Shown: positions 9,001 to 14,750 of the stretch, piece by piece
How positions within the stretch are numbered: the stretch's first letter is position 1
Layout: each line of letters starts with the position of its first letter
Source of the DNA: Escherichia coli O157:H7
GTDB taxonomy: Bacteria; Pseudomonadota; Gammaproteobacteria; Enterobacterales; Enterobacteriaceae
Assembly (NCBI RefSeq): GCF_013167455.1
Contig: NZ_CP038328.1
DNA length: 64,000 bases
Direction: 5' to 3' (one strand)
Made by a program: the position numbers

Positions 9001-12000
9001 CGTTACATCAGGCCATCCGTTTCAGCTTATTCATCAATTCGCGGATGTTGCTGCACCAGGCGGGTACGTTTCGCCTGCAAATCGGCAATCTCGTGGTCAA
9101 TATCATCGATTTTCTGCTCGATATTATCGTAATGCTCGACGAGAATTTCCTTCGCTTCCTGTATATCTGACGCCGCCGGTGTTGCACCTTTCAACGGACG
9201 ATTTGCCGTCTCTTTCATGGTTACGCCGGTGATTAAACCAACCACCGCCACTACCATCAGGTAATAGGCTGGCATCATCAGATTCTGCGAGCTTTCGACC
9301 AGCCAGGCCGCCAGTGTTGGCGTCAGACCGGCAACCAGCACCGAAATATTAAATGCCGCCGCCAGCGCGCTGTAACGGATATGCGTCGGGAACATCGCTG
9401 GCAAGGTAGAAGCCATAACGCCCGTAAAGCAGTTAAGGATCACCGCCAGCATCAGTAACCCGGCAAAAATCAGGCCGATGACGTTACTGTTAATCAGAAT
9501 AAACGCCGGGATCGCCAACACAAACAGTGCAACACTACCAAGTAGCACAAACGGACGACGGCCAAAACGGTCACTCAGCAAGCCCATCACCGGCTGGACA
9601 AACAGCATACCGATCATAATGGCGATAATAATCAGCACCCCGTGGTCTTCGGAGTAATGCAGGTTATGCGACAAATAACTCGGCATATAGGTCAGCAACA
9701 TGTAGTAAGTCACGTTGGTGGCAATTACCAGACCAATACATGTCAACAGGCTGCGCCAGTATTTAGTGGCAATCTCTTTAAACGAGACTTTCGGGCCATC
9801 CTGCAAACCTTCGCGGTCGCCCTGTTCCAGTTTATCAACATGCTGCTGGAACGCCGGAGTTTCTTCCAGCGCATGGCGCAGGTAAAGCCCGATAATCCCT
9901 AACGGCAGAGCAATAAAGAACGGAATACGCCAGCCCCAGTCGAGGAAGTTCGCTTCGCCGACAATGGTCGAAATTAACACCACCACGCCCGCACCCAGCA
10001 CAAACCCGGCAATAGAACCGAAGTCCAGCCAGCTGCCCATAAAGCCACGTTTACGGTCAGGGGAGTATTCCGCAACAAATATCGACGCCCCGGTATATTC
10101 ACCGCCGACCGAGAAACCTTGTGCCATCTTACAGATCAACAGCAGAATCGGTGCCCAAATACCAATCGTGTCGTAGGACGGTATTAAGCCAATACAGAAC
10201 GTACTGATCGACATAATCACAATAGTGATAGCGAGGATCTTCTGGCGACCATATTTATCGCCCAACATACCAAAGAAGAGTCCGCCAAGCGGTCGAATCA
10301 GAAAGGGAACGGAGAAAGTGGCAAGTGCAGCAACCATCTGCACGCTGGGGTCAGCCCCCGGGAAAAAAACTTTACCTAATGCGTAAGCAACAAAACCATA
10401 AACACCAAAATCAAACCATTCCATTGCATTACCCAGTGATGCTGCGGTAATGGCTTTACGCAGTTTACCGTCATCAATAATGGTGACATCACGAAGGGTA
10501 ATCGGTTTTACTTTTTTCCTTTTCAGCATAGCTTTCCTCGCAGAGTTGGCCCATTTCCGCAAACGCCAGAAAAATCAGCGCGACGGCCGCAAAAGGGGAG
10601 CGGGAATTGCAGGATGCAATCTCTGTAACAAGCGTAGCGGGTTTGCTTACACCCTCCGGTTAAGGAATGTACAATCAAACCAGTTGACGCCTGAATTGGG
10701 CAGTTAATGACCTTTTTACCCTACCAGCGTTTAAATTTGTGATCAACTTCACACATGGATTTCGTTTAGGACTCATTGATGTAACTGATTATTTACACCA
10801 AATTTACAGAGAAGATTTCCTCGAGCATTGCCCCCGCCAGACGCTGCGCTGAACAGAGTCGTGGCATCCCCAGCGCGACAGTTTGCCAGCGTTGGGTCAC
10901 TGACCAGCAAACGGGTTGTTTATCTGCCGTGGTCCACTTTCCCAGCCAACTTAAAAAATCAGCATGATCCCCGCCCGTCGGAACGGTCGAAGAGGCAAAC
11001 CACTGATGGTAATAGTGACGCGTGGTCGGGGCCGCATTGATACTCTCTGCCAGATGTTGTGTCGCTTTCACGCGCAAATCACCCAGCAACAACGCCACCG
11101 CTTGCGGGCTTCCCAGACGACAGGCATCGCCAAATGCCCCCCAACGCAACTCTTCGAGAACGATAAAACAGCGCCCAGGCAACGACCAGGCGTTATACGC
11201 CCCAGCACGCCAGCGGGTAAAAATTTGCTCGCTCTGTTCACCCGCCTGCACCAGTAGGCCTCGTTGCGTTAACGCCTTTTCCTTCCAGCGACAACGGGCT
11301 GAAAACCACTCATACAAGGCGGCAATTTGCTGGGGGAGCTCCGGGAAAGCAGAGTGCTGGCGGTGATCCATTTTTTGCAGCAGCGCCAGATGCTGCGCGA
11401 TCTGCGTCAGTGCCAGATGACCGGGATCCAGCATCGACGCCAGTTTTTCCACCAATGTCAGACGCAGACTAAGCGGCGCATTTAACATCCCGCCGTTCGT
11501 CCATGTCTGAAGCTGCACGCGCGCAAGAAGTTCCTGCATCAGTCGTTCACGAAACTGCTGCTGATGGGCTTGTGGAAGGCGGGCATCATCGCCCTGCGCC
11601 AGATCCACTAAAAAGCGGGGATAAACCGACTCCAGCACGCGACCGGGGCCGTCCAGTAACGTCTTGGTCAATATCGTTCTGCCGTGAAAAGTGTTTGAAT
11701 ATCATCGCGTAACAGCTGAGCGTCGGTGTAAATCCAGCCGTGAGTCATCACAGTCTGCTGCAATTGCTGTTGCATCAGCCTGACCACCGATTCATTTTGT
11801 TGACGCAGAGCCAGACTTTCGCGTAAACGCGTCTGTAATTCCGTCAAACATGAAGCGAACTCAGCGAAAAAAGTATTCATGCCTGCCGTAACAGATTCAT
11901 CGACCTGCTCTGCCAGAACTTTAGCCATTTGTTGGCAATAAAGATCGACTTCTGCGCTTAATGCTCGTTGCAACACACTGTAATCAACCGTTTCTGTCGG

Positions 12001-14750
12001 GGATTTCTCATTTCCCCGTCCCCAGTCAGGCTGATTCAACCAGCGCGAAAAAGTCTCACGCACAACGCCTAATCGCGTGCTCTGCTCGTCCGTTGCTTCC
12101 TGGCGCGAAATGACTTCACTGAACAGCTGGCGAGTGTTGAAGTGGGGAACTACGCCGTGAAAAACAGGAAAATGAAACCCAGGACGAAACCCTGACTCGC
12201 TCAATTCCATTTTGACTTGTTGCTCAATGGGGCGAATAACATCGGTTAACACCCGGCAAAGGGTGGATTCAAGCTCGGCAAAACGCAGCGTAAAGTCGCG
12301 ACTGATGGTGTTCTGCGCCGTCTGTAACAGTGTCTCACAGCGGGTACGAATCTCGCTTAACGGCTCCGAATCATCCTGAAACAAGGCGGCTAACTGCACC
12401 TTCAGCGCATCTTGCTGTTGACGCAGAAAGTGGTTGGCGGAGGTCAGGGCCAGCTCGATTTCATGTTTAATCTCGCCGCTCACCTGCGCCTGATTGAGTT
12501 GCAATAGCTGCAAACTTTCTTCGATCTGGTGGATATTTTGCCGCAATTGTTCACAAGCGACGTTTAACCCGTGCGCACGAAAATCCAGGTATTCCCGCGC
12601 CTGCTGCGCGTAATTCAACAGTTTATGCGCGGCAGATCGCAGAGCATACAACGAGGCGTTAGCGTAAGCGGCATGAAGCAACATCTGAATTGGCTGGGCG
12701 AACAGCGAATCTTCCCACAACTGATCGGCAGCATGACGAATATGTTCGAGGTCCGCCAGATCGGCATGACGCCAGCGCCTGCCGAGCGCGGCATGGGCAA
12801 AATCTTCCACCCAGCGTTGTTGCTCTGGCGGTGGTAACTTACCGTTGTTGGCTAACTCATGGCGCGCCCGATTTGCCAGGTAGCCCCACATCGACGACAC
12901 CGGAAATATCTGCTGTGGCGTAATACAGCCTTTCATCAGCGTCCCGGAAATCAGTGCCCGCACCTGGTCGGCGTCGTCACTGTTACGATCCTGTTGATCG
13001 AACTTATTGACCAGCACATACAGTGGCACCGATTGCCCCACCGCCAAAATCGCCTCACGGACCTCTTCATCGGAGATCGATTTCAGTTGCGTATAATCCA
13101 GCACCGCCAGTACCGCCGAGGCGCGTGCCAGCTGCTGGTTAAGCATTTTTTGCAGATGCGGTTGCCCGGCTTCATTTGGCCCGGGGGTATCCAGTAACGT
13201 CAATTGACCGGGATAACTTTCCAGCCCCGCCAGATGGACAAACTCCACTTCAATCACGGGAATATGCTCAATGGCGGCGTAAGCAGAAAAAGGAAAATCG
13301 ACGTCCAGCGCCTTCGCCAGTCGCACCAAATCATTCAAACTTTTCAGACAATGAAAAATAGGCTGGGCACCCAGATAATATTTTTCGAAAGCGACGCCAT
13401 TTTCGATCCGCTGCATAAGCGCACGCATATCTTTATCTATTTCCAGCACATCGGTCAGATGCTTAATATCGCAATCACGCAGGCGCTGTTGTAATTTTTG
13501 AATTAAACAATCGATTGGCGCGACATGTGAAAAATGCAGTACCGGTTCCTTTTGGCCGGGCGTATGGCGAATAAGCGTCGGCAGCGCAGTCATTGGGCGA
13601 TTGCGATTAGGCAGTACCTCCGTACCAACAATGGCATTAATGGTGGTTGATTTCCCTGCTTTCATGGTACCGACAATCGCCAGCACCATTTCCAGTCGGG
13701 AAATTTTACGCAACTCATTATTCAGCATCGCGTGACGCTCGGCGATATTAGGCTGACTCCAGGGTAAAGCCAGTTGTGGCGCATCGTCTCCGGGTACAGA
13801 GAGAGGCATTTTTTCCAGTAACTGCAACTGTTGGCGAGAAAGCTGTAACAGCCGTTCAGCCTCCTGACTTAACTCATACAGGGTCTGTGTGTACATAGAA
13901 AATTCTTCCTTAAAGCAAATTTTATTACTTTTATTTAGCCAGATTGTTTTTGAGTTCTGTTTTCGGCTTTTATAATTACTGCAAGAAATAATTTTATATT
14001 TAGAGTGTTGTTTTTTATTAGAATAAATAACATCTTCCGATACGTTTAAAACGTCAGAAAGATAAAAATATCATGTGAATAAAAAAAAGAACAAGTAGAG
14101 CATTAACCTTATCTTAAATAATAAATGGAGGCAAAAAGATTATTTTCTTTTTGCGTTTCCTTTCAAATGAAAACGATCGTCGTCTAAAATCAGCAGTACC
14201 CCCGACAAACTCAGGGATTTTGTGTATAATTGCGGCCTTTTTCGGCAATCTGCCGTTTTTTGGCGCTTTTGCCCTGCTGACTTTTGAGGAAATCCACATG
14301 TCATTACCACACTGCCCAAAATGCAACTCCGAATACACTTACGAAGATAACGGCATGTACATCTGCCCGGAATGTGCCTACGAATGGAACGACGCAGAAC
14401 CTGCACAGGAAAGCGACGAGCTGATCGTTAAAGATGCTAACGGCAATCTGCTGGCTGACGGCGACAGCGTTACCATCATTAAAGATCTGAAGGTGAAAGG
14501 TAGCTCTTCGATGCTGAAAATTGGCACCAAAGTGAAAAACATCCGCCTGGTTGAAGGCGACCATAACATCGATTGCAAAATCGACGGTTTTGGTCCGATG
14601 AAACTGAAATCTGAGTTTGTGAAAAAGAACTGATTGTATTGTGATCGGTAAGCCGGATAAGGCGTTTACGCCGCATCCGGCAACAGTGCCAGATGCCTGA
14701 TGCGACGCTCGCGCGTCTTATCAGGCCTACAAATTCCCGCACCCTCCGTA

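What the first reader, a model, noticed from the sequence alone, without database searches (positions are those of the whole stretch)
10793..13896. Dynamin-like GTPase crfC translationally coupled to yjcZ
crfC encodes a 742-aa dynamin-like GTPase with an N-terminal P-loop and long coiled coils. Its stop overlaps the start of the 292-aa yjcZ by 4 nt, implying co-expression and possibly a physical complex. The pair sits between two stress-response loci (proP and phn) and the function of yjcZ is unknown.
Basis: partly seen in the sequence, partly recalled or inferred. Interest (0 to 1): 0.3.

Follow-up and report, generated by a model that had tools for sequence, protein, structure and literature searches.

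The report
Known RdcA–RdcB (CrfC–YjcZ) GTPase operon
This is the well-studied E. coli crfC–yjcZ (rdcA–rdcB) gene pair, whose two proteins are already known to bind each other and switch on the biofilm signalling enzyme DgcE, so the finding is real but ordinary.

Summary
Two minus-strand genes of 742 aa and 292 aa overlap by 4 nt, as TTGA. They lie between proP and yjdM/phn in an E. coli chromosome.

RefSeq already names the genes crfC and rdcB. Pfiffer et al. 2019 showed that RdcA (CrfC/YjdA) binds RdcB (YjcZ). They also showed that both proteins are needed to activate the diguanylate cyclase DgcE through its MASE1 domain, and that activation depends on GTP hydrolysis. A 2026 genome-wide screen found both genes again.

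My analysis adds four points.
- The overlap is ATGA or TTGA in 76 of 80 species. yjcZ has no Shine-Dalgarno sequence. Escherichia alone uses a TTG start. These are the classic signs of coupling.
- A published FliA promoter inside crfC (11923..11896) also drives yjcZ separately. It is conserved at synonymous sites in 63 of 79 species.
- The YjcZ family mostly occurs in three-gene dynamin–YjcZ–patatin cassettes. One such cassette sits in about half of E. coli genomes and was noted in the literature in 2026.
- A confident model of YjcZ is all-helical and resembles no solved structure.

Verdict: already known, low interest.

The parts
11668..13896 (-). crfC / rdcA (yjdA): 742-aa soluble dynamin-like GTPase
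   Evidence: ORF. RefSeq annotation crfC. NCBIfam NF007368 scores 1596.8 bits against a cutoff of 1146. Pfam Dynamin_N covers residues 72-277. The G1-G4 motifs are invariant in 79 orthologues. No TM-like segment was found.
10793..11671 (-). yjcZ / rdcB: 292-aa all-helical partner protein, TTG start
   Evidence: ORF. RefSeq annotation rdcB. Pfam PF13990 gives E=3.7e-145. The N-terminus is conserved from residue 1 across genera, and an ATG sits at the orthologous position in other genera. The AF2 model has pLDDT 90.6.
11668..11671 (-). 4-nt stop/start overlap TTGA (crfC TGA stop overlapping the yjcZ TTG start)
   Evidence: Sequence. The overlap is conserved as ATGA or TTGA in 76 of 80 species. 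There is no SD upstream: duplex energy is -2.8 kcal/mol, no better than 41% of random crfC positions.
11896..11923 (-). Intragenic FliA (sigma-28) promoter inside crfC that drives yjcZ: TAAAGTTC-N11-GTCGATGA
   Evidence: Exact match to the motif published by Fitzgerald et al. 2014. FliA-dependent lacZ fusion activity is reported. TAAA...CGAT is kept in 63 of 79 species, and synonymous-site conservation ranks 3rd of 733 positions.
13648..13671 (-). P-loop / G1 codons (residues 76-83, GTMKAGKS; K82)
   Evidence: Translation. Identical in 78 of 79 orthologues over residues 75-84. The K82A and T103D mutants are characterised in PMC6510439.
13762..13776 (-). Codons for the published beta-clamp-binding motif 41-QLALP
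   Evidence: The motif is named in PMC6374313 and is present in the window protein. Among the 79 orthologues aligned, Q41 is found only in the window's own E. coli sequence.
13905..13911 (-). Shine-Dalgarno sequence of crfC (AAGGAAG)
   Evidence: The upstream 20 nt are GCTTTAAGGAAGAATTTTCT, with an anti-SD duplex energy of -6.1 kcal/mol (sequence).
13897..14297 (.). AT-rich crfC-yjdM divergent intergenic region holding the crfC promoter region
   Evidence: GC is 0.375-0.425. A sigma-70-like candidate lies on the minus strand at 14166..14139, matching 10 of 12 positions. H-NS binding and repression, and DnaA boxes, are reported in PMC6374313.

Best explanation
The locus is the E. coli rdcA-rdcB (crfC/yjdA-yjcZ) operon.

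What the proteins do. RdcA is a soluble dynamin-like GTPase that forms dimers or oligomers. RdcB is a soluble helical partner that binds RdcA. RdcA, with RdcB bound to it, docks on the membrane-embedded MASE1 domain of the diguanylate cyclase DgcE. In two-hybrid assays RdcB itself did not interact with DgcE. The docking promotes an active DgcE dimer, which raises c-di-GMP. That in turn turns on CsgD, curli and cellulose and damps motility. GTP acts as an inhibitor: only nucleotide-free or post-hydrolysis RdcA binds DgcE. A fall in the GTP pool at entry into stationary phase is therefore the likely input signal. All of this is shown in the literature.

How the genes are expressed. This part is my inference.
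- On the full-length mRNA, ribosomes that terminate at the crfC TGA re-initiate at the overlapping TTG (ATG in other genera). yjcZ has no Shine-Dalgarno sequence of its own, so this would tie RdcB synthesis to RdcA synthesis.
- A second, conserved FliA promoter about 225 nt upstream, inside crfC, gives a yjcZ-only transcript in flagellated cells. This could raise the RdcB:RdcA ratio independently.
For: Identity:
- The region is 100% identical to an annotated E. coli chromosome carrying crfC and rdcB, and is present in 5417 of 5426 complete genomes.
- The NCBIfam equivalog and Pfam YjcZ both score far above their cutoffs.

Function, from the literature:
- RdcA-RdcB two-hybrid interaction, RdcA-DgcE(MASE1) interaction, non-additive phenotypes of rdcA, rdcB and dgcE, and the opposite behaviour of the T103D and K82A mutants (PMC6510439).
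- A transposon screen with c-di-GMP biosensors recovered both rdcA and rdcB as low-c-di-GMP mutants (PMC13031359).

Coupling signature:
- The overlap is conserved in 76 of 80 species, down to 43% YjcZ identity.
- There is no SD before yjcZ (-2.8 kcal/mol, background level), whereas crfC has AAGGAAG at -6.1 kcal/mol.
- The GTPase motifs are invariant.

Second promoter:
- FliA ChIP-seq, RNA-seq and a lacZ fusion support it.
- The motif is at window 11923..11896.
- Its promoter elements, but not its spacer, are conserved at synonymous sites. Third-position identity is 0.868 against a gene mean of 0.607, sd 0.088, ranking 3rd of 733.

Both proteins lack hydrophobic TM-like segments.
Against: - Translational coupling has not been measured. 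It is inferred only from the overlap, the missing SD and the conservation.
- The FliA-driven transcript lacks the crfC start codon. On that mRNA, yjcZ must be translated without coupling, or after initiation at an internal in-frame ATG such as M673. This shows the overlap is not the only route to RdcB.
- Fitzgerald et al. saw no motility defect in a yjcZ knockout in an otherwise wild-type background.
- The window is from strain CDC#03-98, not K-12. Function is carried over by near-identity, not tested in this strain.
Confidence: 0.85

Rival explanations
1. The main role of the large protein is chromosome partitioning. In this view CrfC binds the beta sliding clamp through 41-QLALP, holds sister replication forks together and localises to nucleoid poles. 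YjcZ would be a bystander that is merely co-transcribed.
For: Ozaki 2013 and Taniguchi 2019, as summarised in PMC6374313, report clamp binding through Q41, anucleate cells in delta-crfC and Q41A mutants, CrfC foci, and H-NS and DnaA sites in the promoter region. The QLALP motif is present in the window protein. NCBI names the protein 'clamp-binding protein CrfC'.
Against: - Among the 79 orthologues aligned, Q41 is found only in the window's own E. coli sequence. The other Escherichia species in the alignment have PLTLP, and all other genera have (V/I)(L/Q)PLHF. The GTPase motifs and the yjcZ partnership, in contrast, are universal.
- Pfiffer et al. note that clamp binding is independent of GTP, that delta-yjdA has no growth defect, and that most in-vivo partition data used plasmid expression.
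- The tight co-inheritance of yjcZ and its identical mutant phenotypes argue against a bystander role.
- The two roles are not mutually exclusive. CrfC could be moonlighting.
Confidence: 0.3
2. The 4-nt overlap is simply gene packing with no regulatory effect. In this view yjcZ is made mainly from its own FliA-dependent transcript, so the two proteins are expressed largely independently.
For: - Fitzgerald et al. state that the FliA promoter is inside yjdA, and that a promoter upstream of yjdA had been wrongly predicted.
- In their RNA-seq, yjcZ falls from 52 to 1 in delta-fliA.
- A promoter fusion is FliA-dependent.
- The promoter is under purifying selection at synonymous sites.
- ATGA overlaps are the commonest overlap class in bacterial operons (general knowledge).
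Against: - yjcZ has no SD in any sampled genus, and Escherichia uses a weak TTG start. This is hard to reconcile with efficient independent initiation.
- The overlap is retained in 76 of 80 species. The same dynamin/YjcZ junction overlaps in the paralogous cassettes: by 4 nt in L082, L084, L087, L090 and L092, and by 1 nt in L091.
- Plasmids carrying the intact rdcA-rdcB unit complement the double deletion.
- Flag-tagged RdcA is present throughout growth.
Confidence: 0.25
3. The core pair still carries out the presumably ancestral job of the mobile dynamin-YjcZ-patatin cassettes, such as membrane surveillance or phage defence. DgcE activation would then be a side effect.
For: - The YjcZ family is mostly found in three-gene cassettes with a patatin phospholipase.
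- Some cassettes sit next to type I R-M or HEPN/MNT genes. One sits in an E. coli genomic island.
- The island proteins are 33% and 30% identical to CrfC and YjcZ.
- Dynamin-like proteins defend against phage in other systems.
Against: - The window locus has no patatin gene. proP follows yjcZ.
- The pair is core, present in 5417 of 5426 genomes, has normal GC content, and has a fixed position between proP and yjdM.
- PADLOC gives only weak generic dynamin hits for CrfC and none for YjcZ.
- No defence phenotype has been reported for either form. The 2026 paper only speculates.
Confidence: 0.08

Closest known systems
RdcA/RdcB (YjdA/YjcZ, CrfC) DgcE-activating GTPase system of E. coli K-12 (Pfiffer et al. 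2019)
   Same: Same genes. The gene order is the same, the position between proP and yjdM is the same, the lengths are 742 aa and 292 aa, K82 and T103 are present, and the internal FliA promoter sequence is identical to the published K-12 motif.
   Different: The strain is different: 100% identity is to CDC#03-98, not K-12. Nothing else differs. It is the same system.
Dynamin family - RdcB family - patatin-like phospholipase operon on E. coli genomic islands (noted in BMC Genomics 2026, PMC12922286)
   Same: It is a paralogous module. The dynamin-like GTPase is 33% identical over its full length, and the YjcZ-family protein is 30% identical. The stop/start junctions also overlap by 4 nt.
   Different: It has a third gene, a patatin phospholipase with intact GxSxG and DGG motifs. 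It is accessory and island-borne, present in 2614 of 5426 genomes. Its function has not been tested. It is absent from this window.
Bacterial dynamin-like proteins (Nostoc BDLP, B. subtilis DynA, C. jejuni DLP1/2)
   Same: The Dynamin_N GTPase domain is shared. The best PDB sequence hits are BDLP 2j68 and C. jejuni 5owv. Like them, it oligomerises and works with a partner.
   Different: Similarity to solved BDLPs is confined to the P-loop region, at E=1.8e-6. There is no membrane-binding hydrophobic paddle or TM segment. The partner is a non-GTPase helical protein rather than a second dynamin. The known output is an enzyme (DgcE), not membrane remodelling.
Eleos / 'Dynamins' anti-phage system (LeoA + LeoBC; Millman et al. 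2022)
   Same: It is a dynamin-like GTPase operon, and PADLOC gives weak LeoBC and LeoA hits for CrfC.
   Different: Eleos consists of two consecutive dynamin-like genes. Here the second gene is YjcZ, which has no PADLOC hit. The LeoBC and LeoA hits, at E=2e-6 and 3e-5, reflect only the shared GTPase fold.
flhC-internal FliA promoter driving motAB-cheAW (Fitzgerald et al.)
   Same: Both are sigma-28 promoters embedded in the 3' part of an upstream coding gene that drive the downstream gene. In both, the promoter constrains the overlapping codons.
   Different: The crfC-internal promoter is conserved in only 63 of 79 yjcZ-bearing species. The authors did not single it out as broadly conserved.

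Membership tests
RdcA/RdcB (CrfC-YjcZ) system | The large protein matches the CrfC equivalog model above its curated cutoff | tested here: met
   NF007368 scores 1596.8 bits against a cutoff of 1146, over the full length 1-742
RdcA/RdcB (CrfC-YjcZ) system | The second protein belongs to the YjcZ/RdcB family | tested here: met
   PF13990 scores 482.8 bits against a cutoff of 27. RefSeq names it rdcB.
RdcA/RdcB (CrfC-YjcZ) system | crfC lies immediately upstream of yjcZ on the same strand, in the chromosomal context proP / yjdM-phn | tested here: met
   Adjacency holds in 80 of 80 species loci.
RdcA/RdcB (CrfC-YjcZ) system | Intact GTPase motifs, including K82 (P-loop) and the catalytic T103 | tested here: met
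   GTMKAGKST, RPMTALP, DTPG and NKFD are all present, and are invariant or nearly so in 79 orthologues
RdcA/RdcB (CrfC-YjcZ) system | Physical RdcA-RdcB and RdcA-DgcE(MASE1) interaction, and DgcE activation | not testable with these tools
   Shown for K-12 by two-hybrid assays and genetics (PMC6510439).
Translationally coupled gene pair (termination-reinitiation) | The stop codon of the upstream gene overlaps or abuts the start codon of the downstream gene | tested here: met
   TTGA at 11668-11671. A 4-nt overlap occurs in 76 of 80 species.
Translationally coupled gene pair (termination-reinitiation) | The downstream gene lacks its own strong ribosome-binding site | tested here: met
   The anti-SD duplex is -2.8 kcal/mol in the window and averages -2.49 across species, at the background level of -2.13 +/- 2.47. 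The start codon is TTG.
Translationally coupled gene pair (termination-reinitiation) | Downstream translation depends on upstream translation | not testable with these tools
   This needs nonsense-polarity or translational-fusion experiments. The separate FliA transcript shows that coupling cannot be the only route.
Bacterial dynamin-like proteins | Dynamin-type large GTPase domain | tested here: met
   Pfam Dynamin_N gives E=2.7e-18. The best PDB hit is BDLP 2j68.
Bacterial dynamin-like proteins | Membrane-binding paddle or hydrophobic tip | tested here: not met
   No 19-residue window exceeds Kyte-Doolittle 1.6; the maximum is 1.21. The literature describes the protein as soluble.
Bacterial dynamin-like proteins | Helical neck/trunk (stalk) after the GTPase domain | not tested
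   No CrfC structure model was made. The composition of residues 341-742 is rich in helix formers.
Eleos / Dynamins defence system (LeoA + LeoBC) | Two (or three) consecutive dynamin-like GTPase genes | tested here: not met
   The second gene is YjcZ, which has no GTPase domain and no PADLOC hit. CrfC hits LeoBC and LeoA only weakly.
Dynamin-YjcZ-patatin island cassette | A patatin-like phospholipase gene directly downstream of the YjcZ-family gene | tested here: not met
   The downstream gene is proP. There is no patatin match in the window.

The most novel reading that the evidence does not exclude
The core rdcA-rdcB pair may be a domesticated two-gene offshoot of a widespread mobile dynamin-YjcZ-patatin cassette. 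In that cassette, YjcZ-type proteins would act as general adaptors that pass the nucleotide state of a dynamin-like GTPase to a membrane-acting effector. In Enterobacteriaceae the phospholipase effector would have been replaced by the MASE1 domain of DgcE. The conserved FliA promoter inside crfC would be kept to change the RdcB:RdcA ratio in flagellated cells. It might work through an internally initiated C-terminal CrfC peptide, starting at M673, that carries ribosomes into the SD-less yjcZ start.
Probability: 0.2. Interest if true: 0.45.

Novelty: already known. Interest (0 to 1): 0.1.

Why it matters
It matters little as a discovery. The gene pair, its co-expression, the physical interaction of the products and the function of YjcZ were published in 2019 and re-confirmed in 2026.

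The residual value lies in open details:
- What RdcB does to the GTPase biochemically.
- Whether the conserved overlap, with no SD and a TTG start, really enforces coupled synthesis.
- Why a second, conserved FliA promoter feeds yjcZ alone.
- What the related dynamin-YjcZ-patatin cassettes on mobile islands do.

These questions are testable, but they are incremental for the c-di-GMP and bacterial dynamin fields.

Tried and rejected
- PADLOC scan of both proteins and of the island cassette. Only weak generic LeoBC/LeoA and phospholipase hits appeared, and none for YjcZ, so this is not a catalogued defence system.
- NCBIfam for YjcZ. No model matched.
- First AF2 run with 18 close homologues. 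The model was poor (pLDDT 68.7). It was replaced by a 90-sequence alignment that gave pLDDT 90.6.
- Foldseek against the PDB. The best E was 0.77 with TM no higher than 0.26. No GAP-, GEF- or dynamin-stalk-like fold could be assigned.
- afdb50 fold library. It was unavailable.
- NtrC regulation of a 'yjcZ-proP' unit. ChIP enrichment was weak and the EMSA was negative in the source paper, so I dropped it.
- Terminator scan. It found no convincing intrinsic terminator between yjcZ and proP, and hits were at the shuffle level. No conclusion was drawn.
- GC composition. The two genes are ordinary for E. coli, so there is no sign of recent horizontal acquisition of the core pair.
- In-frame internal starts downstream of the FliA promoter. 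M673 is conserved but has no good SD (-1.7 kcal/mol). M708 has an SD-like sequence (-5.8 kcal/mol), but its conservation across species was not measured; the conservation check covered residues 673, 703 and 716 only. This remains speculation.
- Literature search for a described dynamin+patatin+YjcZ system. It found only the 2026 transcriptome note.

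
Full report
**Observation**

The window holds two minus-strand ORFs at exactly the stated coordinates. One is 742 aa (13896..11668, ATG start, TGA stop). The other is 292 aa (11671..10793). The junction reads ...GAA CGA TAT TGA with TTG ACC AAG ACG in the +2 register, so the overlap is the four bases TTGA. The downstream start codon is TTG rather than ATG.

The 3.6-kb region is 100% identical to E. coli CDC#03-98. It is present in 5417 of 5426 complete E. coli genomes, where RefSeq annotates it as crfC plus rdcB with the same boundaries. The flanks are proP downstream on the same strand, and yjdM, yjdN and phnCDE upstream and divergent. The GC content of the two genes is ordinary. 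The 401-nt crfC-yjdM spacer is AT-rich, at 0.375-0.425.

**Identity of the proteins**

The large protein hits Pfam Dynamin_N at residues 72-277. It matches the NCBIfam equivalog 'clamp-binding protein CrfC' at 1597 bits against a cutoff of 1146. Its closest solved relatives by sequence are Nostoc BDLP and C. jejuni DLP1/2, but only around the P-loop.

The small protein is a full-length member of Pfam PF13990 (YjcZ), with E=3.7e-145. Neither protein has a TM-like hydrophobic segment.

**What is already known**

- Girgis et al. [quoted passage not shown]
- Pfiffer et al. 2019 renamed the genes rdcA and rdcB. Deleting either one phenocopies delta-dgcE for macrocolony matrix, CsgD, curli and c-di-GMP, and the effects are non-additive.
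- In two-hybrid assays RdcA self-associates, binds RdcB tightly and binds the MASE1 domain of DgcE. RdcB itself showed no interaction with DgcE.
- The GTPase-dead T103D mutant abolishes DgcE binding and activation. The nucleotide-binding mutant K82A stays active. GTP is therefore inhibitory.
- A 2026 FRET-To-Sort transposon screen independently recovered rdcA and rdcB among low-c-di-GMP mutants.
- Separately, Ozaki 2013 and Taniguchi 2019 describe CrfC as a clamp-binding nucleoid partition factor acting through 41-QLALP. They report H-NS repression and DnaA boxes in its promoter region. Pfiffer et al. regard this as a possible moonlighting role.

**Is the overlap meaningful?**

A scan of one genome per species returned 80 Enterobacteriaceae loci: Escherichia, Citrobacter, Enterobacter, Kosakonia, Phytobacter, Leclercia, Lelliottia, Trabulsiella, Superficieibacter, Atlantibacter, Franconibacter and others. 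A crfC homologue lies directly upstream on the same strand in 80 of 80.

The junction classes are:
- ATGA in 72 species.
- TTGA in the 3 Escherichia representatives.
- GTGA, which can also be read as TGATG, in 1 species.
- TAA-nn-ATG in 4 species.

The YjcZ N-terminus (M1, G8, R11, L13, E14) is conserved from residue 1. Other genera have an ATG at the orthologous position. The annotated start is therefore real, and the TTG is an Escherichia-specific A-to-T change.

There is no Shine-Dalgarno sequence before yjcZ. The anti-SD duplex energy is -2.8 kcal/mol in the window and averages -2.49 across species. Background within crfC is -2.13 +/- 2.47, and 41% of random positions are at least as good. 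crfC itself has AAGGAAG at -6.1 kcal/mol.

An overlap, no SD and a weak start codon together are the textbook signature of termination-reinitiation coupling. This remains an inference, not a measurement.

**Expression is not only coupled**

Fitzgerald et al. 2014 mapped a FliA (sigma-28) binding site and promoter inside yjdA that drives yjcZ. In their RNA-seq, yjcZ fell from 52 to 1 in delta-fliA. [quoted passage not shown] A lacZ fusion confirmed that the promoter depends on FliA.

Their 28-mer, TAAAGTTCTGGCAGAGCAGGTCGATGAA, matches the window exactly at 11923..11896 on the minus strand. That is within CrfC codons 658-667 and about 225 nt upstream of the yjcZ start.

In a codon alignment of 79 orthologues, TAAA...CGAT is kept at the orthologous position in 63 species. 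The commonest form is TAAAGCTT-N11-GTCGATGT. Maintaining it requires CGT/AAA/GCT codons, TTR rather than CTG for leucine, and GTC-GAT.

Third-position identity at the five codons that carry the -35 and -10 elements is 0.868. The gene-wide mean for the same geometry is 0.607 with sd 0.088, which ranks this site 3rd of 733. The spacer codons are unconstrained, at 0.38-0.65.

The promoter is therefore under selection in its own right. On its transcript the crfC start codon is absent, so how the SD-less TTG is used there is unresolved. An in-frame ATG at M673 lies roughly 10 nt after the expected TSS and is conserved in 75 of 79 species. It has no good SD, so this idea remains speculative.

**Wider family**

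A profile search of 1.84 billion representative proteins found only 262 YjcZ-family members at E<=1e-3. I sampled loci outside the core clade, at 20-30% identity to YjcZ. The eight distinct three-gene loci with a readable upstream gene are L082, L084, L086/L087, L088/L089, L092, L093, L094/L095 and the P0229 contig. In all of them the upstream ORF abuts or overlaps the YjcZ gene.

- The upstream gene was confirmed as a dynamin-like GTPase of about 800 aa, by a Pfam Dynamin_N hit, in L082, L087, L092, L094 and the P0229 contig.
- In L084, L088/L089 and L093 the upstream ORF is a cut C-terminal fragment whose Pfam content was not established.
- The YjcZ gene is followed by a patatin-like phospholipase in 9 of 10 loci, with short overlaps of 4-11 nt. 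The nine are the eight loci above plus L083. The exception is L091, a two-gene version.
- In L083, YjcZ is fused to DUF3944 and there is no dynamin.
- Neighbouring genes include a type I R-M system and a HEPN/MNT pair.

One such cassette is in E. coli itself. It encodes a dynamin-family protein of 798 aa (33% identical to CrfC), an RdcB-family protein of 301 aa (30% identical to YjcZ), and a patatin of 356 aa with GASIG and DGG motifs. It lies on a CP4-44-like island and is present in 2614 of 5426 complete genomes. It is not in this window.

This operon was already noted as a putative dynamin defence system in BMC Genomics 2026, without functional tests. PADLOC v2 does not catalogue it. It differs from the Eleos/Dynamins system, which is made of two dynamin genes.

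**Structure of YjcZ**

With a 90-sequence alignment, AlphaFold2 gives a confident all-alpha model, with pLDDT 90.6 and pTM 0.91.

- Foldseek returns nothing below E=0.77.

The fold gives no hint whether RdcB is a GAP, an exchange or release factor, or a scaffold. That question was left open by Pfiffer et al..

**Side observation on CrfC**

The GTPase motifs G1-G4 are invariant across 79 orthologues. Q41, reported as essential for clamp binding, is found only in the window's own E. coli sequence among those orthologues. The other Escherichia species in the alignment have PLTLP, and all other genera have (V/I)(L/Q)PLHF. A hydrophobic xLxLx(F/W) core is conserved, so clamp binding elsewhere is not excluded, but it has not been shown.

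**Verdict**

It is partly outdated, because the function of YjcZ is known and a separate promoter exists. The locus is the known RdcA-RdcB/CrfC-YjcZ operon, so the novelty class is 'already known' and interest is low.

Noticed in passing
window 13762-13776 (minus strand; CrfC residues 41-45): The published beta-clamp-binding motif QLALP has its essential Q41 only in the window's own E. coli sequence among the 79 orthologues aligned. The other Escherichia species in the alignment have PLTLP, and all other genera have (V/I)(L/Q)PLHF. The GTPase motifs are invariant in all 79 orthologues.
   Followed up: partly
window 11896-11923 (minus strand): The FliA promoter inside crfC constrains synonymous codon choice: CGT-AAA-GCT-TTR ... 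GTC-GAT. It is kept in 63 of 79 species, and its synonymous-site conservation ranks 3rd of 733 positions. It is lost in Trabulsiella, Superficieibacter, Atlantibacter and Franconibacter.
   Followed up: yes
window 11878-11880 (minus strand; CrfC M673): An in-frame ATG lies about 10 nt after the expected FliA transcription start and is conserved in 75 of 79 species. It could let ribosomes translate a 70-aa CrfC tail and couple into the SD-less yjcZ start. It has no convincing SD, and there is no evidence that it is used.
   Followed up: partly
L090:4340-8705 (E. coli strain E1 island); also L082, L084, L086-L089, L092-L095: A paralogous three-gene dynamin-YjcZ-patatin cassette has 4-nt overlaps at both junctions. 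It is present in 2614 of 5426 complete E. coli genomes, on a CP4-44-like island. Elsewhere it sits next to type I R-M or HEPN/MNT genes. PADLOC v2 does not catalogue it.
   Followed up: partly
L083:5001-6599: A 532-aa protein fuses DUF3944 and a Ubiq_cyt_C_chap-like region to a C-terminal YjcZ domain. A patatin gene follows it, and there is no dynamin gene upstream.
   Followed up: no
Proteins P0020-P0022 (E. coli; 438-442 aa): Some E. coli strains carry a deletion-fusion allele that joins the N-terminal roughly 227 residues of CrfC (Dynamin_N) to YjcZ residues from about 85 to the end. This is probably a natural loss-of-function allele of rdcAB. A few genomes also have IS1 insertions or a near-complete deletion of the locus.
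   Followed up: no
window 13897-14297: The crfC-yjdM divergent spacer is markedly AT-rich, at GC 0.375-0.425. A sigma-70-like candidate promoter for crfC lies at 14166..14139 on the minus strand. The literature reports H-NS repression and DnaA boxes here.
   Followed up: partly
window 10530-10792: The simple scan found no convincing intrinsic terminator between yjcZ and proP. One ChIP-seq study listed a 'yjcZ-proP' transcription unit with weak NtrC signal, but its EMSA was negative.
   Followed up: no
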